Shown here: positions 21,465 through 63,717 of the stretch, one piece after another
Layout: each line of letters starts with the position of its first letter
Position numbering within the stretch: position 1 is the stretch's first letter
IMG/VR virus record: IMGVR_UViG_3300042935_001404
Strand: one strand, 5' to 3'
DNA: 64,000 nt
Source of the DNA: a virus
Taxonomy: Duplodnaviria > Caudoviricetes
The notes under the pieces: generated by a model
Told to the model about the DNA's origin: nothing
What the model saw: the letters and a program-made list of their open reading frames with translations, nothing else
The model's database searches: none
Translations under genes and position numbers: made by a program

Positions 21465-22490
21465 TCAGAAACTATGTGACAATCCAATGTAACTAGCTGT
21501 ACCTATGTTTGCAGTATCGGCTGCACCAGCGGCAGTTACAGCTTGCTTGGTATCTGATAAAAACGCTTCAAGTTTAGTACGCTTGCTGAAAGAATACACT
21601 GCGCGAACGCCTGTAACACCCTTCTTAGTGTTGGCAGCACCATTGGCACCAATGTTTACATTGTTAGACAACTTAGACAAAGACACATCTAACTTGGCAT
21701 TAACTGGAACTTTAATGCCGTACTCAGTTGACTTATGAGCTGCCATAGAAGTCAAATTGTCTTTTTGATTCATTTGGTTAACTGCAACTTCTGCAAATCC
21801 AAAATTGTAAGCGGCGTTGATAGTTTGCAACTTTTCAGCATTGAGACCAGTGATATTAGCAACTTGAGCTTTTAATCCTCCTGCTGAATAGTTAACACCA
21901 ATGACGTTCACATCATTCATCAACGTTGCTGTGGTTGTAGTGGCAAAACCATTGCCAGGGACCACTACATATTTGTTATGTCTGCCCTTGGCGTTTAATA
22001 AAAATACCTCTGCACCAGCAATCTTAGGCGAAGTGTATTGCACTTGTGCAGAATTGCGACCATAATTCAAGCCAGAATGGGTACCTTTAGACCAGTCTTG
22101 CATATAATGGCCGGCACCGTTTGTGCTGACCAACTGAGTAGAGAAACGACCTAATTTAACATTGCCGAACTTGCTATCCACAAAAATATTAGACTGTTCC
22201 CACAATTGAGTGTTGGCGTCACCAGTTGATGAATTAGCATATGACCCTTGTGCACCAGTTTCGGAACTAAAACGATTTTGTAAAAAAATACCAACTTTGG
22301 TACCACCGCCTAAGTCTTCAGCGGCACTAAAGTTTAAATAATTACGGTCACCTTTGGCAGCGCCAACGGTAGTAACTCCGGCAGCAGACCTTGCTACACC
22401 ATATTGAACCTGACCAGAAATTGTCACGGTTGATTGTGCAAGGACAGCAGTAGATACAGTCAATGCTAAGATTGCGAAGATTTTCTTCAT
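21465..22490 (-). CDS. Gram-negative general porin (Burkholderiales type)
   Basis: Signal peptide MKKIFAILALTVSTAVLA, VTISG, AAEDLGGG, YSFSKRT, C-terminal IGLSHSF. Confidence 0.9.
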   Translation of the reverse strand: MKKIFAILALTVSTAVLAQSTVTISGQVQYGVARSAAGVTTVGAAKGDRNYLNFSAAEDLGGGTKVGIFLQNRFSSETGAQGSYANSSTGDANTQLWEQSNIFVDSKFGNVKLGRFSTQLVSTNGAGHYMQDWSKGTHSGLNYGRNSAQVQYTSPKIAGAEVFLLNAKGRHNKYVVVPGNGFATTTTATLMNDVNVIGVNYSAGGLKAQVANITGLNAEKLQTINAAYNFGFAEVAVNQMNQKDNLTSMAAHKSTEYGIKVPVNAKLDVSLSKLSNNVNIGANGAANTKKGVTGVRAVYSFSKRTKLEAFLSDTKQAVTAAGAADTANIGTASYIGLSHSF

Positions 22491-24003: not shown

Positions 24004-24280
24004 AAAAACCCTAGGCAGTGTTTAGACTGCCAATGCTTCCTTGGCTGTACGAGCAGAGAACTTGACGTTCTTACCAGAAACAGTTACGGTTTTGTTTACG
24101 TTTGCATTTACGTTTTTTGCTTGATTAACGGTCATCGCCTACCGTGCTGTCCACTTGTTTACTTGTTGCCCTGTCGAATCTAGTGCTCCCCCACCTAAAT
24201 ATACTGAATACATTTAGGTGGAGGAGGGGGGATTCGCACCCCCGTCCAAGACACTTTTCTCTTTGCTTCATACAGCAATA
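23971..24280 (-). ncRNA. ssrA: Circularly permuted (two-piece) tmRNA
   Basis: Acceptor piece (~24280-24217, T-arm GGGGG-TGCGAAT-CCCCC then CTCCTCC-A-CC) precedes a 24-nt spacer and the coding piece starting GGGGGAG-CACTAGATTCGAC (24192); G3.U70 pair; tag 24105-24022 ANVNKTVTVSGKNVKFSARTAKEALAV* with the stop codon in a hairpin loop. Confidence 0.92.
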
Positions 24281-24376: not shown

Positions 24377-24466
24377 TGGCGGAAGCGGTGAGATTCGAAC
24401 TCACGAGGGACGTTGATCCCTGCTGGGTTAGTAATCCAGTGCCATCGGCCACTCGGCCACGCTTCC
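24377..24466 (-). tRNA. tRNA-Ser with ACT anticodon
   Basis: Long variable arm, G73, loop TT-ACT-AA, A31:C39 mismatch. Confidence 0.85.
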
Positions 24467-24739: not shown

Positions 24740-25240
24740 CTAGAATTTTTCATTAACTTTAGCACGATAACTAGCAGTTGATAACCCTTTAAATCGATCT
24801 GCCGCATAACTGGCAGCAAATGCATTGGGTTTAACTGATGGCGTCACATTACATGTTCCTTTAATGTAGCCAACAGCCTGTGATATCACACAGCTCGACC
24901 CGTATTTATCGTCAGGATTGATATCTAAGTGCACCTCAACATGACGATTTTCCAACACTTCGCCCAATTTCAAATACAGTTCAGATACTTTGTAAACTTC
25001 ATTCATCAGGCGCATGCTTGGACGCGATGTTTTTTGATCAAAGTCCCGTTCGCGGTGTACTTCTCCAAACAGTTTGCAACCGTTGTTGCCGTTGATATGC
25101 ACCACAATGGCCACCACGTAGTCAGCATACCAAACACCGTTTACACGATGACGTTCTGAGTCACACCCAAGATAAATCTTAGTCTCAGGAGTTTGTTCTT
25201 CAATGAACCTTTTTACTTTAACAAGATTTATCTTTTCCAT
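24740..25240 (-). CDS. RNase H-like YkuK (DUF458) family protein
   Basis: KIYLGCDS, RLMNEV, EVHLDIN, FAASYAAD. Confidence 0.85.
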   Translation of the reverse strand: MEKINLVKVKRFIEEQTPETKIYLGCDSERHRVNGVWYADYVVAIVVHINGNNGCKLFGEVHRERDFDQKTSRPSMRLMNEVYKVSELYLKLGEVLENRHVEVHLDINPDDKYGSSCVISQAVGYIKGTCNVTPSVKPNAFAASYAADRFKGLSTASYRAKVNEKF

Positions 25241-25348: not shown

Positions 25349-26284
25349 TTATTGACCGAGTTTTGTTGCAAATGATTCAAACATATGGTCCATGGTTTTG
25401 ATATTTTGCAAATCTAATTTGTAGTCACCAGACTTGCTGACCAGATGTTTTTGAACCAAGTCAGGCATGGCCAGTTTGATTGCTTGATTCAGATCCTTGA
25501 CAACTTGATCTCGCACTTCTCGGGGAGTGTCTTTTCTTATAAAGAAACTGTATCCTGCCACTAAGTTTTGGTAATCAGAGAATCCGGGACTTGTTAAATT
25601 AGGCAAATCTGGAAAGTCAGTTGACTTTTTGTTGTCAAACACAAACAGCGGTGTTAGTGTTCCGGCAGTGATGTGTTGATTAACATTGCCGTAGCTGATA
25701 ACAGCAAAGTCAAGTTGATTGTTTAAAATATCTACAATCACCTGAGGTATACTTTTGTAGTTGACCAAAATTCCGTTGACTTTCATCTTGTCTATGGCTA
25801 ATGATCCGTAAATGTGAAGAGGACTTCCTGTTATAGTGCTACCATATGTTAGTCCTTTTTGTTTGCCTAGTTCTGCCAGATCATTGAGATTCTTGATGTT
25901 TCTTTTGCTGTTGGTAACCAATACCCATTGTGGAGAATAGAAATGTGATACCGGTTCGAAATGCCGTTCGTAATCAAATCCTGTTGACGGTTTTGCACTG
26001 GCATAGGCAGTTGATGCGTAGAACAAAATTGTATGGCCATCGGCCGGGGCCGACAAGACATGTTGAGACGCTATGGCAGCGGCCCCACCTGGTTTGTTCA
26101 TTACCACGACACCGGATTTCCAGATCCCGTCTAGTTTTTCTGCCACAGTTCTTGTGATAAGATCAAGTCCACCGCCTGCTCCTGTGGGAACAATTAGTTG
26201 TACAGGTTTCTCAGGAAACGCTGATACAGAGACACTAACACTCATAACAAGTGCGGTTAATAATGTTGATACAATTTTCTTCAC
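25349..26284 (-). CDS. Bug/TctC tripartite tricarboxylate transporter substrate-binding protein
   Basis: Signal peptide, FPEKPVQLIVPTGAGGGLD, NKPGGAAAIA, APADGHTIL. Confidence 0.9.
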   Translation of the reverse strand: MKKIVSTLLTALVMSVSVSVSAFPEKPVQLIVPTGAGGGLDLITRTVAEKLDGIWKSGVVVMNKPGGAAAIASQHVLSAPADGHTILFYASTAYASAKPSTGFDYERHFEPVSHFYSPQWVLVTNSKRNIKNLNDLAELGKQKGLTYGSTITGSPLHIYGSLAIDKMKVNGILVNYKSIPQVIVDILNNQLDFAVISYGNVNQHITAGTLTPLFVFDNKKSTDFPDLPNLTSPGFSDYQNLVAGYSFFIRKDTPREVRDQVVKDLNQAIKLAMPDLVQKHLVSKSGDYKLDLQNIKTMDHMFESFATKLGQ

Positions 26285-29101: not shown

Positions 29102-29194
29102 CCATATAAAAGCACACTATATGCGCCCTGGTTGTTAAGCGCCACTAACAGCCTGCAACCACGCAGGGTAGCCGTGTAATGTGCTTTTATATGG
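29102..29194 (-). ncRNA. Candidate structured ncRNA immediately 3' of tRNA-Lys
   Basis: 15-bp closing stem CCATATAAAAGCACA/TGTGCTTTTATATGG enclosing two internal hairpins. Confidence 0.45.
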
Positions 29195-29265
29195 TAGGGG
29201 TGCAGGGGAACGATCCCTGTTTTACGGATTAAAAGTCCGTTACTTCACCTTAAAGTTTCACCCCC
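29192..29265 (-). tRNA. tRNA-Lys(TTT)
   Basis: Loop CT-TTT-AA; atypical T-loop ATCGTTC; G1.U72. Confidence 0.9.
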
Positions 29266-29388
29266 TAATGGGCTTTGTTTTTGTGCTCGACGCAGAGCCT
29301 TGTTGCTCTTACGATGCGAACCTGCTTTGCGGAACAGTGCAAGACGAACGAAGCAGTTACGTTCGCGCACGATCGATTTACGTTTCAT
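29245..29388 (-). CDS. 47-aa basic peptide reading into tRNA-Lys (possibly ArfA-like)
   Basis: AAAGGA SD; MKRKSIVRERNCFVRLALFRKAGSHRKSNKALRRAQKQSPL|GGETLR*; stop codon lies in the tRNA D-loop. Confidence 0.7.
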   Translation of the reverse strand: MKRKSIVRERNCFVRLALFRKAGSHRKSNKALRRAQKQSPLGGETLR

Positions 29389-29407: not shown

Positions 29408-29483
29408 TGGTGGAGGATAACGGATTCGAACCGTTTGCTCCTGGTTGCAAACCAGGTGTGTTAGCCAAGTATACCAATCCCCC
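29408..29483 (-). tRNA. tRNA-Ala(TGC)
   Basis: G3.U70, A73, loop TT-TGC-AA. Confidence 0.96.
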
Positions 29484-29484
29484 A

Positions 29485-29724
29485 ATATGCTCTGCATCCC
29501 CCGGCGGTAATTATAGAGTATCAACATAGATTAATCCGGAATCTAACTCAACTAAGGTTAGCGATTCTATGCATCACACACTCCTTCCACCCGCTTCCCG
29601 ACAGGGACCGTTATCGCATTGCTAGCGGCCTTTTGGTAAGAAGACTACCACCCTTGAGTAACGAACTCACTTCTCTCGTACGGGTCATACTAGCCAGGCG
29701 TTACCCCGACGGGTTCTTCTCTCA
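29485..29724 (-). ncRNA. Candidate ~240-nt structured ncRNA directly upstream of tRNA-Ala
   Basis: GC-rich, no credible ORF, consecutive hairpins with GUAA and GCAA tetraloops and a T-loop-like TTCGTTA. Confidence 0.55.
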
Positions 29725-31363: not shown

Positions 31364-31371
31364 AAAAAGAG

Positions 31372-31436
31372 GAGAGCCACGGTTGCAGGACCTAGTGTCT
31401 CGTTGCCGAGAGAAGTGTCCAGGCGATGTGGCTCTC
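31372..31436 (-). ncRNA. 65-nt rod-like hairpin between tRNA-Glu and tRNA-Asp
   Basis: GAGAGCCAC/GTGGCTCTC closing stem, GGAC/GTCC inner helix, TCTCG-GCAA-CGAGA apex. Confidence 0.45.
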
Positions 31437-31525: not shown

Positions 31526-31758
31526 CTATTTTAAAACATACTAAAGGAACCATTGTGCATCTATGTCTACCTATAGGACCGTCTCCTATAGACCTGCACG
31601 GTCATTACTGCCTACATGCTCCGCCGCTTTTCTGGACATTTCTGCCCGGTTTCATGGACCTAGCTTGAGCGTGGGCGGCCCCACAGTCCTCGCCTTAGAT
31701 CCCTAACGGTGTAGGTAACCTTTAATACGTTTTAAAATAGCAACCCTTACGGGTTACC
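31526..31758 (-). ncRNA. Candidate ~230-nt multibranched ncRNA
   Basis: CTATTTTAAAAC/GTTTTAAAATAG closing stem; several internal helices with GAAA and GUAA tetraloops; no credible ORF. Confidence 0.6.
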
Positions 31759-32414: not shown

Positions 32415-33176
32415 TTAAAGATTTTTAAAAACTTTTTTTATAATTGCACTGCGATCCAGTTTGGAACTGGCACCCAGCACAATGACTGCGTACTGTTGTT
32501 TGTTGTGTTCTACCAGCATGGCCACACACCATCCAGCAAGATTAGTAAATCCAGTCTTGCTCACGTCCACACGGGTAAACTCTGCCAACAGTGGACGGGA
32601 TGTGTGAACCAGGTTCACAGAGCTGCCGCCTATTTTGTCAAGTTTTTTCAACAGCACAGTTGACTGCCCACTGGCTTCTTGTATAAACCAATAGTTGGCA
32701 GCAATCTGTACCATTTCTATTAGATCCCGTGCAGTGGACACATTGAACACACCCAGGCCTGACGGATCTACAAATTTAGTATTTCGAAGATTCCACATCC
32801 GGGCATGTCGATTCATTTCAGCTACAAAGGCAGATCGGCCTCCGGGGTAGTTCTGTGCAATGGTTTCGGCTGCTCCGTTGTCACTGCTGACCAGCATGGC
32901 CAGCAACAACTGTTCTCTGGTGTACCTGCCGGGCGGCAATCGACTGCCGGTGTTTTTTCTCAGCACCAACTGCTGTTGAAGATCTCTGTTGTGATCCAAT
33001 GCAACCATGGCAGTCATCAACTTGGTCACACTGGCCATTGATCTGATTTGATCACTATTTTGACTCAGTTCCGTGCGCTGTGCATTGATGTTGTAGACCA
33101 ACACTGTGGGCTCACGTGCGTGGGCCGTTGCATTGGATAAAACTGTACAAAAAAGTACTGCGGCAAATAATTTCAT
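32415..33176 (-). CDS. D-alanyl-D-alanine carboxy/endopeptidase (peptidase S11, PBP7-like)
   Basis: Signal peptide; ASVTK (SxxK), SDN (SxN), FVDPSGL, KTG. Confidence 0.92.
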   Translation of the reverse strand: MKLFAAVLFCTVLSNATAHAREPTVLVYNINAQRTELSQNSDQIRSMASVTKLMTAMVALDHNRDLQQQLVLRKNTGSRLPPGRYTREQLLLAMLVSSDNGAAETIAQNYPGGRSAFVAEMNRHARMWNLRNTKFVDPSGLGVFNVSTARDLIEMVQIAANYWFIQEASGQSTVLLKKLDKIGGSSVNLVHTSRPLLAEFTRVDVSKTGFTNLAGWCVAMLVEHNKQQYAVIVLGASSKLDRSAIIKKVFKNL

Positions 33177-61059: not shown

Positions 61060-63717
61060 TCACCATTCAAATAAAGTTTGGAATGTATTCTCTGTGTTGG
61101 TGGCACTTGCCAAGTCCCAATCCAGCACACCCAACAAGTTGTCAATTTTTTGATCCACAACAGTGGCCTCCATCAATCCATCATCAAATGGCAGTTCTGT
61201 GAACCAAGCAGGCAAGCGTTGTTCATCTGTGGGATAACCAATTGACGTCCACCCAAGAGCATTGCTTTTAAGTTTACACACAATAGTTTTCATACCATCA
61301 ACAATTTGCATACTGTAGTTGTCGCCATTCATTTTCCGCATGTTGTTCCAGTTCATGGCAGCTCGCACATGTCCTGGCATATTGGCTTTGCCAAGCCTTG
61401 CCTCTTCTGCACCATACTTGGTCAAGTTGTTCACACGCTTGGGCGACCCTTTTTCCCAGCCCGGACGTTCCATAAACTCATATTTGAATTCACGAATACG
61501 TGCTACAATGGAATCTCTGTCAGCACCATGCAATGTACTATTTAGAATTTCCAACAAGAAGTCTTGAATTACCTTAGGTGTATCACTACGCTTCAAGTCC
61601 AGGCCCATGGCCTTGGTCTTGCCCTTCTTGCCTTCCACATCCAGTCGCTTGCCTTCCAAGTCAATGATGTTCACAGCATAGCGTTTCTTTGTGATAAACA
61701 GGCCACGATCTGCCACCAGTTCTCGACCTGCCGCAATCAACGCACCCATCTCTCTTGGACAGTGAAATGCCTGTTCCATGAAGCCTGGAAAACTCTCATT
61801 CACTTGTTCAGCAATAGAGTCATACAAGGCAATGGCAGTTTCCTTGTTCCACGCCATACGACCTTCTGCTACTTCTTTCTTCAGCACTGGCCACGCAGTA
61901 AAGTAGCAGGAGTCTGTGTCACCATAGATGATGGCTTCGCCGGTGTGATCATACACACCTGTGATACATTCGTTGATGTGTGCATCCATGTGCCGGGCAA
62001 TGGCACGACCAGTTAGTGTAGTGCTTTGTCCAATGCGATGATCGAAGAACCTGCAACCAGGATTTAAAATAGCACCATATAACGAGTTCAAGTTAATCTT
62101 CTTGACCAACTGTCGCTTGTCCCAGAATGCTTCTTCTTTCTTGTCCCGGGCTGTTTTCTTTTTGGCCTGTAGTTCTTTACGTTCACTGTACCAACGTTCC
62201 AACAAGCCTGGGATGATACCCTTCTTTTCGTATGTGAGAATAGTACCGTTAGCACTCATGATCCAAGGCTGATTGCTGTCAAACATGATGGTCCAGATCT
62301 CTGCGGCACTGTGTGTGCTTTCTGTGCCATCTTGCCAGTCAATAGTGATCTCTGTGCCACGTTGCTGTTCCATTACCGCAGTGTATTCCAAACTGCCAAA
62401 CAAGCCCTCCCAGGCAGCCGCAAAACTTGCACCCTTGGCAATTTTTTCTTTGATGTAGTGATCACTCATGATGGGACGCAGTTGGCCTACTACAGTTTCT
62501 GGTCCCATGTTCATGGCACGAATGGCCGATGGATATAGACTGTTGATGTCGACTGATCCAATCCAGTCATGCAGGCCCTTCTTTGGATACGCAACATACG
62601 CACCTGCGGCCTGGGTGTCATCGTCTGTGAGTCGTTGCTTGCGATTGGGCACTACCATGCCACGTTCGTGCGCTTCATTGATAATGGCCTGCTCAGTCAC
62701 TGCCACAGCACCCATTGTGGTTTGTAGTAGCACAGTATTGGCGTGTGCCAGTTCGCTGGCTAGACTCAAGAACTGTAGTTTACGATCCAGTTTGTGCAAC
62801 AACAGTGTATCTTGTCTGTTGTATTCAATAAACTTTTTAAAGTGTTGGTTGTACAAAGCATCCAGGGTGCCTTCAAACTGTGTCTTGCGTTCGTTGAGTT
62901 CGTACTCGCCAATGGCATCTAAACTGTACGAATGGCGTTCTTCATATGTGTACTTGCGATACAGTTGCATATAGTCCATATGCACACGACCAATCAAGTC
63001 ATATGTTTGGCTTTCACTGCCAAAGCGTTCAAACATACGCATCTTGGGCAGTTGTCCCCACAGACAGAACTTACGTGTGTCGTCTTTGCTCAGCACACGA
63101 GTGCAACGATTCACAGTGTAGGGAATATCGTAGCCTTCTGAGTTCCAGCCACTCAGCACGTCTGCATCTTCGATCAAGTCCAGGAATGTTTTGATCATGT
63201 CCTCTTCTCGTTCAAACAAGATGGTATTTTCAAAGTCCTTCACAAGATCTTGTGCAGTTGCCCACGATAGACCTTTGGGCGGAACTGCCAGTGTGACCAA
63301 TTGATCCAACCAGTTCAGGTAGACTGAGATTGCAGTGATGGGATTGAATGGATCATCCACAGGCGAGAAACCTCGCTCCTTGTCAAAGTCTACCTCAATG
63401 TCGAAAAATGCAACATTGAGTTCTGGGGCGTCTTGGTCTTTGTAGTTTTCTTCCAAGCAACGAAAGATGGGATTGATATCACTTTCATACAATTGCTTGC
63501 TGGAGTGCATGCGAACTTCCTTGCGGAATTCTTTGTTGTTGCGTGTGCTGAAGCGACTCACAGGTGTTCCGTAGATGCTTTGGAACTTGCCTCTGGCATC
63601 GTCGTAATAGAAGATGTAGTTGGCAGGATACTCTTGGTATTTCCTCACGCCGTCTCGGCGTTCTACAACATGAATGCGATCGTGTTCACGATCAAATAGT
63701 GCGTCAATATAACTCAT
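61060..63717 (-). CDS. Family B DNA polymerase (T4 gp43-like)
   Basis: Exo I FDIEV, GWNS-GYDIPY, YSLDAI, YN-QD; polymerase DINSLYPS, KINLNSLYG, YGDTDS, KKRY. Confidence 0.97.
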   Translation of the reverse strand: MSYIDALFDREHDRIHVVERRDGVRKYQEYPANYIFYYDDARGKFQSIYGTPVSRFSTRNNKEFRKEVRMHSSKQLYESDINPIFRCLEENYKDQDAPELNVAFFDIEVDFDKERGFSPVDDPFNPITAISVYLNWLDQLVTLAVPPKGLSWATAQDLVKDFENTILFEREEDMIKTFLDLIEDADVLSGWNSEGYDIPYTVNRCTRVLSKDDTRKFCLWGQLPKMRMFERFGSESQTYDLIGRVHMDYMQLYRKYTYEERHSYSLDAIGEYELNERKTQFEGTLDALYNQHFKKFIEYNRQDTLLLHKLDRKLQFLSLASELAHANTVLLQTTMGAVAVTEQAIINEAHERGMVVPNRKQRLTDDDTQAAGAYVAYPKKGLHDWIGSVDINSLYPSAIRAMNMGPETVVGQLRPIMSDHYIKEKIAKGASFAAAWEGLFGSLEYTAVMEQQRGTEITIDWQDGTESTHSAAEIWTIMFDSNQPWIMSANGTILTYEKKGIIPGLLERWYSERKELQAKKKTARDKKEEAFWDKRQLVKKINLNSLYGAILNPGCRFFDHRIGQSTTLTGRAIARHMDAHINECITGVYDHTGEAIIYGDTDSCYFTAWPVLKKEVAEGRMAWNKETAIALYDSIAEQVNESFPGFMEQAFHCPREMGALIAAGRELVADRGLFITKKRYAVNIIDLEGKRLDVEGKKGKTKAMGLDLKRSDTPKVIQDFLLEILNSTLHGADRDSIVARIREFKYEFMERPGWEKGSPKRVNNLTKYGAEEARLGKANMPGHVRAAMNWNNMRKMNGDNYSMQIVDGMKTIVCKLKSNALGWTSIGYPTDEQRLPAWFTELPFDDGLMEATVVDQKIDNLLGVLDWDLASATNTENTFQTLFEW

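What the first reader, a model, noticed from the sequence alone, without database searches (positions are those of the whole stretch)
29485..29724. Unnamed ~240-nt ornate ncRNA abutting tRNA-Ala
Seen: a GC-rich island between AT-rich genes, ending 2 nt before tRNA-Ala so RNase P would define its 3' end. Helices include GGG-GUAA-C(G)CC, TGAG-TTCGTTA-CTCA, GGTAG/TTACC, GGCCG/CGGTC capped by CGC-TAGCAAT-GCG, and CTAAC/GTTAG. Known: large structured RNAs such as GOLLD, ROOL and manA occur beside tRNAs in aquatic phages; I cannot match this one by eye.
Basis: partly seen in the sequence, partly recalled or inferred. Interest (0 to 1): 0.65.

Follow-up and report, generated by a model that had tools for sequence, protein, structure and literature searches.

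The report
Triply knotted RNA among phage tRNAs
The flagged stretch is a real gene for a roughly 200-230-base, tightly folded non-coding RNA that hundreds of uncultured lake jumbo phages carry among their tRNA genes; it matches no catalogued RNA family, its sequence turns up in lake RNA samples, and its job is still untested.

Summary
Real and conserved; function unproven. The RNA lies on the minus strand at 29716-29488 (229 nt) and ends 4 nt before tRNA-Ala. It has no Rfam match and its folding energy alone is not unusual (z +0.65). However, 305 homologous hits (244 distinct RNAs, median about 200 nt) occur in uncultured phage and metagenome contigs. Compensatory changes support eight helices and a loop-to-junction pair. 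A P1-P3 kissing loop and two pseudoknots rest on few independent events. Neighbours vary: a tRNA follows within 12 nt in only 79 of 232 contexts, so RNase P is not the general 3'-end maker. It was not found in cultivated phages or in about 550 Burkholderiales-group genomes sampled. Family sequences are in four freshwater metatranscriptomes. Best guess: a stable RNA released from tRNA-array transcripts that acts by shape on host translation or RNA-defence machinery (0.4). It is not GOLLD, ROOL, manA, T4 rnaC/D or an HDV-like theta ribozyme. This scan already reported the family on other genomes.

The parts
29488..29716 (-). Whole structured ncRNA (229 nt in this copy; family median about 200 nt, range about 155-279)
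   Evidence: CM R1 hit 29486-29720, 185 bits, the only copy in the window; shared boundaries in homologues
29711..29716 (-). Unpaired 6-nt 5' leader with a near-invariant C; in about half of the relatives it starts right at the upstream tRNA's CCA
29693..29710 (-). P1 hairpin; its loop (29704-29699) kisses the P3 loop (KL1; 6 complementary nt in this copy, 3-4 in most)
   Evidence: P1 pairs co-substitute, E 3e-7 to 2e-3; loop complementarity 3.48 vs 2.77+/-0.10 bp in permutations, 0/2000; three KL1 pairs nominal p 4e-4 to 3e-3, not significant after all-pairs correction
29678..29690 (-). P2 hairpin; its loop (29686-29682) pairs with 29653-29650 (pseudoknot PK1)
   Evidence: P2 E 5e-12 and 3e-7; PK1 seen in five sequence versions; one position pair co-changes 4/4 times, E 0.011, but 6 of the 13 variant sequences are a U-C mismatch there
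29654..29677 (-). Purine-rich J2/3 and P3 hairpin (loop 29665-29659, kissing partner of P1)
   Evidence: P3 E 4e-10 and 6e-6
29628..29653 (-). PK1 3' strand, PK2 5' strand (29649-29647), 1-nt linker that takes 29-61-nt insertions in relatives, and P4, whose loop (29637-29635) closes an H-type pseudoknot PK2
   Evidence: P4 E 9e-5 to 3e-3; PK2 inverted in one lineage of 8 RNAs, a single event; insertion lengths
29611..29627 (-). P5 (3 bp, conserved 7-nt loop) and J5/6; last loop base 29618 pairs with 29611 (single tertiary pair)
   Evidence: P5 E 5e-7; tertiary pair U-A to C-G 6/6 times, E 2e-4. Note that search pattern 2 fixed much of this segment.
29591..29610 (-). P6 5' strand, 2-nt bulge, P7a, NGRA bulge, P7b 5' strand
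   Evidence: P6 E 3e-6 to 9e-5; P7b middle pair C-G/U-A/A-U 12 co-changes, E 2e-6
29508..29590 (-). Variable distal arm (P8 with a tandem G-A, kink-turn-like motif in 123/236, plus a lineage-specific cap); dispensable, 6-92 nt in relatives
   Evidence: (minimal L432)
29488..29507 (-). P7 and P6 3' strands and unpaired 3' tail AGCA (AGC near-invariant)
29408..29483 (-). tRNA-Ala(UGC), downstream neighbour in this copy, after a 4-nt spacer (29487-29484)

Best explanation
A stable, trans-acting, compactly folded non-coding RNA of Rak2/Atu_ph07-like freshwater jumbo phages. It is encoded as one slot in the polycistronic tRNA array. SHOWN: conserved boundaries, non-coding character, covarying helices P1-P8, a tertiary pair, tRNA-array context, and family sequences in RNA libraries. 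PARTLY SHOWN: kissing loop and two pseudoknots. INFERRED: it is co-transcribed with its neighbours and freed by host tRNA-processing nucleases (RNase E-type cuts after an upstream CCA; RNase P where a tRNA follows), then trimmed back to the fold, and it accumulates during infection. GUESSED: it works through its 3D surface, not by base-pairing to targets, most likely as a decoy or ligand for host translation or RNA-surveillance factors, helping keep translation running. Layered odds: real structured RNA 0.97; stable trans-acting product 0.75; shape-based translation/defence role about 0.4.
For: Structure: (unbiased MI scan). Non-coding: lengths fall in all three frames, and arms expand or shrink only at two peripheral sites. 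Array context: 70 of 73 well-flanked contexts have tRNAs within 2.5 kb, 64 on both sides, none antisense. The CCA-to-P1 distance (5-8 nt, mode 6) equals the usual tRNA-tRNA spacer mode of 5-7 nt. Neighbours on both sides vary freely (12 tRNA types, other ncRNAs, ORFs), which argues against control of one gene. No long conserved single-stranded tract exists; near-invariant bases sit in junctions, loops and bulges. Family sequences are in 4 of 4 laid freshwater metatranscriptomes, including exact 94-nt and 75-nt matches to this copy. The locus also holds 24 tRNAs and a permuted tmRNA. Precedent: GOLLD, ROOL (10.1101/2024.12.08.627333) and T4 RNAC/RNAD (PMC3014915) are tRNA-region phage RNAs of unknown function.
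Against: No partner, target or activity was identified, and no neighbouring gene is conserved. Expression rests on assembled contigs from runs chosen for holding the stretch: no strand, ends or level can be read, relatives are pooled, and DNA carry-over is not excluded. The three long-range pairings rest on 1-4 independent events and mostly miss all-pairs significance. My parser chose P1 and P4 partners by pairing, and two search patterns fixed parts of P5 and P7. Invariant junction bases fit a catalytic or ligand pocket equally well.
Confidence: 0.4

Rival explanations
1. A ribozyme of a new fold that cuts at its own 5' leader, freeing itself and trimming the 3' trailer of the tRNA (or ncRNA or mRNA) in front, as theta ribozymes are proposed to do.
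For: 125/238 contexts start within 4 nt of a tRNA end. CCA-to-P1 distance is 5-7 nt in 108/114, against 50% for the best three bins of ordinary spacers. Theta ribozymes show a similar 58% tRNA association (PMC10879173). Compact core with crossing pairs and near-invariant unpaired bases, including a C in the leader.
Against: The first helix starts 6 nt after the CCA, which is the normal array spacer. HDV/theta topology (G1 opening P1, nested double pseudoknot) is absent. The other tRNAs in these arrays have no such element behind them. The tight spacing can be inherited from one ancestral junction, with upstream tRNAs swapped by recombination (inference). At about 200 nt it is far larger than known small self-cleavers (own knowledge).
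Confidence: 0.14
2. An RNA-only homo-oligomer (dimer or cage, like GOLLD/ROOL/OLE) in which the covarying loop-loop pairs form between molecules.
For: Same genomic niche as GOLLD/ROOL, whose cages use kissing loops (10.1101/2024.12.08.627333). Covariation cannot tell intra- from intermolecular pairing. Most copies have a 4-8-nt palindrome at the 5' end.
Against: About a third to a quarter of their size. The similarly sized raiA RNA (205 nt) is a monomer (same paper). The 5' palindrome is missing in about a fifth of copies, including this one.
Confidence: 0.14
3. A cis-acting element of the long tRNA-array transcript (antiterminator of put/EAR type, stabiliser or processing signal).
For: Always co-oriented and nearly always inside the array; about one copy per genome (1, 1 and 2 in three near-complete genomes).
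Against: It lies mid-array (median 5 tRNAs upstream and 7 downstream within 2.5 kb), not promoter-proximal. Sharp conserved ends on both sides. A run of 5 or more U follows within 12 nt in 57/305 hits. Contigs in RNA libraries pile on the RNA core (weak evidence).
Confidence: 0.1
4. A small-molecule or ion-binding aptamer (sponge or orphan riboswitch-like sensor).
For: Kissing loop, pseudoknots and conserved purine-rich junctions resemble riboswitch pockets (own knowledge). 49/232 copies have a possible SD plus start codon close downstream.
Against: No conserved downstream gene or expression platform; most copies are followed by tRNAs or other ncRNAs; no Rfam riboswitch match.
Confidence: 0.1
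5. Not a functional RNA: a conserved spacer or DNA element whose helices are chance.
For: Single-sequence folding z-score is not significant.
Against: Dozens of independent compensatory changes on a tree. G-U pairs point to the minus-strand RNA. Insertions are confined to structurally tolerant sites.
Confidence: 0.02

Closest known systems
GOLLD and ROOL RNAs (Rfam; cryo-EM in 10.1101/2024.12.08.627333 / PMC12286853)
   Same: Phage-encoded, near tRNA islands, several pseudoknots and kissing loops, abundant, function unknown.
   Different: They are about 600 to over 800 nt and form nanocages; this RNA is about 200 nt with another helix order, and there is no CM match.
Phage T4 RNAC and RNAD (species 1 and 2; PMC3014915, PMC9697503)
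   Same: Stable-RNA slots within a phage tRNA cluster; role unknown.
   Different: 139 and 119 nt. RNAD ends in CCA and RNAC has a T-arm-like hairpin near its 3' end; this RNA ends in AGCA with no T-arm. Model R1 gives at most 6 bits on the T4 region.
Theta (HDV-like) ribozymes (PMC10879173)
   Same: About half of the copies begin at a phage tRNA 3' end.
   Different: Minimal HDV fold with G1 at the tRNA end, mainly in gut phages; here an unpaired 6-nt leader, a simple hairpin P1 and about 200 nt. Cleavage untested.
raiA motif RNA (PMC10861870)
   Same: About 205 nt, two pseudoknots, optional peripheral helices, function unknown.
   Different: A bacterial chromosomal RNA. From my own knowledge its ends pair in an enclosing P1, which this RNA lacks. 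No Rfam hit.
manA RNA (Rfam)
   Same: About 200 nt, next to tRNAs in aquatic phages (own knowledge).
   Different: No Rfam match even at E up to 10.

Membership tests
GOLLD / ROOL | Match to the Rfam covariance model | tested here: not met
   none among the 150 best rows listed
GOLLD / ROOL | Length of about 600 nt or more | tested here: not met
   about 155-279 nt, median 201
GOLLD / ROOL | Phage tRNA-island context | tested here: met
   70/73 well-flanked contexts
GOLLD / ROOL | Homo-oligomeric cage | not testable with these tools
   needs cryo-EM or mass photometry
manA | Match to the Rfam model | tested here: not met
raiA motif | Match to an Rfam model; 5' and 3' ends paired in an enclosing helix | tested here: not met
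   no Rfam hit; no covarying 5'-3' helix (enclosing helix of raiA recalled from own knowledge)
T4 rnaC/rnaD | Located in the phage tRNA cluster | tested here: met
T4 rnaC/rnaD | Sequence or structure homology | tested here: not met
   R1 with filters off on the T4 tRNA region, best 6 bits; blastn of phage records negative
T4 rnaC/rnaD | tRNA-like 3' end (T-arm and/or CCA) | tested here: not met
   tail is AGCA in 221/236 and AGCU in 8; compare
Theta / HDV-like ribozyme | 5' end within +/-5 nt of a tRNA 3' end | tested here: met
   met in 125/238 contexts, but not in this copy
Theta / HDV-like ribozyme | G1 opens P1; nested double pseudoknot P1/P1.1/P2/P3/P4 | tested here: not met
   covariation-derived topology has an unpaired leader and a simple hairpin P1; no Rfam HDV hit
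Theta / HDV-like ribozyme | Self-cleavage | not testable with these tools
   needs an in vitro assay
RNase P RNA, SRP RNA, 6S RNA, tmRNA, riboswitches, group I/II introns | Match to Rfam models | tested here: not met
   the weak tmRNA rows come from the flanking tRNA T-arm
Fremin et al. 2023 IMG/VR candidate structured RNAs (PMC10690425) | Presence of this RNA or a fragment in their 8,495 models (29-151 nt) | not testable with these tools
   supplement not held; their maximum length is below the full RNA, but a fragment may be listed

The most novel reading that the evidence does not exclude
A new large ribozyme class with a triply knotted core, widespread in lake jumbo phages, that processes RNA in tRNA arrays (cuts at its own 5' leader after the upstream CCA, or acts in trans on tRNA precursors).
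Probability: 0.14. Interest if true: 0.92.

Novelty: new variant of a known kind. Interest (0 to 1): 0.62.

Why it matters
Large, highly knotted RNAs of unknown function are the pool from which new ribozymes and RNA machines have come. This one is a new fold of convenient size with a defined minimal core (about 155-160 nt, L432). It has over 240 natural variants for structure-guided work and appears in RNA samples from several freshwater studies. It makes an open question directly testable: why phages from T4 to jumbo phages put orphan stable RNAs in their tRNA arrays. Its interest is capped because no function is shown and no cultivated carrier was found.

Tried and rejected
Rfam at gathering and E-value level on this copy, a typical copy and the minimal copy: nothing. 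Single-strand MFE folding, whole and by domain: not better than shuffles. blastn of 50,697 cultivated-phage records with two variants: chance matches only. R1 on five cultivated jumbo phages nearest by DNA polymerase: one 13-bit hit inside an Atu_ph07 CDS, rejected as chance. R1 on 151 genomes of an Ideonella isolate's family and a pattern on 401 genomes of a Nitrosomonas isolate's order: none found in those searched. No sigma-70 promoter or terminator next to this copy; a T4-late or -10 motif lies upstream in only a few non-tRNA contexts. Literature searches, including exact sequence words, found no description; the Minerva preprint does not cover it. Lack of read cover on flanking ORFs is not used as evidence. 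My first P7 register was replaced by the four-pair register with a bulged A after divergent copies were seen. A prevalence test by DNA polymerase gave only two near-complete relatives; both carry the RNA, too few to call it a core gene. Antisense, tRNA-mimic (no CCA) and coding readings were rejected on anatomy.

Full report
1. The observation. The window is part of a large phage: a family B, T4 gp43-like DNA polymerase at 61060-63717 is closest among cultivated phages to Sinorhizobium phage Phosso (51%), Atu_ph07 (46%) and Asteriusvirus/Mimasvirus jumbo phages (42%). An array of 24 tRNAs and a permuted, beta-type tmRNA lies on the minus strand between 18256 and 33269. TctC and porin genes and the tmRNA type suggest a betaproteobacterial host (inference). 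The flagged stretch is on that strand between a 253-aa ORF and tRNA-Ala. It has no Rfam match at gathering level or at E up to 10. Alone it folds no better than shuffles (z +0.65). Its G+C of 0.50 contrasts only with the upstream ORF (0.30), not with the downstream side (0.46-0.51).

2. It is a large family. Three further viral patterns anchored elsewhere and one metagenome scan added more. Model R1 scored 305 near-full-length hits, 244 distinct RNAs, from 73 to 242 bits. The window has one copy (185 bits); three near-complete genomes have 1, 1 and 2. Homology begins at 29716 and ends at 29488. Nothing was found in cultivated phages or in about 550 sampled genomes around two Burkholderiales-group isolates; cellular genomes were not scanned exhaustively.

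3. Structure. An unbiased mutual-information scan of the MAFFT alignment picked out Watson-Crick pairs first. The 58-pair model is 95.9% paired, with 33 doubly changed pairs, 0/500 shuffles and 38-47% in slid controls. Because relatives share history, I also counted co-substitutions on a tree. P1, P2, P3, P4, P5, P6, P7 and P8 each have pairs at E below 0.05 after correction for all column pairs. A single pair between the last P5-loop base and J5/6 switches U-A to C-G six times out of six (E 2e-4). A non-canonical link between the end of P3 and the P4 loop also co-varies (E 0.007). Three crossing interactions are supported less strongly. The P1 and P3 loops are complementary across 56 loop combinations (3.48 vs 2.77 bp, 0/2000 permutations, not tree-aware), with three pairs at nominal p 4e-4 to 3e-3. 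The P2 loop pairs with the strand after P3 in five sequence versions. The P4 loop pairs with the three bases before P4, and this is inverted in one lineage. Length varies at two peripheral sites only: a 29-61-nt insertion in the PK2 linker, and a distal arm of 6-92 nt that often carries a kink-turn-like motif and is almost absent in L432. Lengths occur in all three frames, so it is not coding. Caveats: my parser chose the P1 and P4 partners by pairing, and two patterns fixed parts of P5 and P7.

4. P3 and P5 are right. The distal helix is present but lineage-specific. The GUAA mini-hairpin is the kissing loop of P1. Only three pairs of the third helix hold, and they are PK2. The fourth helix is refuted, at 60% paired in variable sequences against 94% for P4.

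5. Context. Of 73 contexts with 2.5 kb on both sides, 70 have tRNAs nearby, 64 on both sides, none antisense. Upstream, 125 of 238 start within 4 nt of a tRNA end, of 12 types; most others follow another ncRNA-like element or a stop codon. The CCA-to-P1 distance is 5-7 nt in 108 of 114, the same mode as ordinary tRNA spacers but tighter. Downstream, a tRNA follows within 12 nt in 79 of 232. So the RNA behaves like one slot of the array. RNase P can make its 3' end only in a third of copies, and here would leave four extra bases (inference).

6. Expression. Twenty-four RNA runs from 19 studies, mostly freshwater, hold a small share of the region. In four laid runs the contigs pile on the RNA core, with single contigs at depth 762, 1497 and 3024, and exact 94-nt and 75-nt matches to this copy at depth about 30-36. 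These are contigs from selected runs, pooled over relatives, so they show presence in RNA libraries, not strand, ends or level.

7. How it most likely works. I commit, at about 0.4, to a stable trans-acting RNA released from the array transcript by host tRNA-processing nucleases and acting by shape on host translation or RNA-defence factors. Reasons: free neighbours, sharp ends, no antisense tract, conserved bases concentrated in junctions, and a locus otherwise filled with translation-related RNAs. The target is a guess. Rivals are a new ribozyme acting at the 5' leader (0.14), an RNA-only oligomer (0.14), a cis element (0.1) and an aptamer (0.1).

8. Comparison with what is known. It shares its niche with GOLLD and ROOL, T4 RNAC/RNAD and theta ribozymes, but fails each membership test that could be run: size and Rfam models; homology and tRNA-like end for T4; HDV topology for theta. 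No paper in the library describes it. A fragment may sit among the unnamed IMG/VR candidates of PMC10690425, which I could not check. Earlier notes of this scan flagged what appears to be the same family on other genomes; they are not independent support.

9. Verdict. A real, uncatalogued family with a new fold within a known kind (orphan structured RNAs of phage tRNA arrays). Interest 0.62.

Noticed in passing
window 31526-31758 (-): Second uncatalogued multibranched RNA of about 200-230 nt closed by a long AU-rich stem; no Rfam hit. A look-alike lies directly downstream of the present RNA in L030 and L049.
   Followed up: partly
window 31368-31436 (-): About 65-nt conserved structured motif just after tRNA-Asp; look-alikes lie directly upstream of the present RNA in L022, L251, L281, L091, L371 and L403. 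No Rfam hit.
   Followed up: partly
window 29102-29180 (-): Small element closed by a conserved stem right after tRNA-Lys; similar stem-closed ncRNAs follow the present RNA in 31 of 232 contexts.
   Followed up: partly
window 24022-24277 (-): Circularly permuted, betaproteobacterial-type tmRNA (130 bits); also in L044 and L109.
   Followed up: no
window 29245-29388 (-): 47-aa basic ORF between tRNA-Ala and tRNA-Lys whose end overlaps tRNA-Lys; no Pfam or PHROG hit.
   Followed up: no
window 25349-26284, 21465-22490, 32415-33176, 24740-25240 (-): Host-like genes inside the tRNA array: TctC receptor, Gram-negative porin, D-Ala-D-Ala carboxypeptidase S11, RNase H-like protein.
   Followed up: no
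L011, L246, L063, L332, L365, L073 (upstream of the RNA): Further unnamed RNAs ending in CCA, some with a T-arm-like hairpin (T4 rnaC/D-like slots), abut the RNA's 5' end like tRNAs do.
   Followed up: no
G005 (IMGVR_UViG_3300027749_002876) 119581-119798 and 424189-424394: A 524-kb record carries two divergent copies on opposite strands; it could be a true duplication or a chimeric assembly.
   Followed up: no
L291:1554-1644, L089:1142-1230, L058:1404-1554, L432:3709-3829: Weak second R1 hits (18-26 bits) a few hundred bases from a full copy; the one read (L291) is a truncated 5' piece with P1-P2 only, suggesting relocation within arrays.
   Followed up: no
window 24377-24466 (-): ARAGORN calls a tRNA-Ser with the unusual anticodon ACT.
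   Followed up: no
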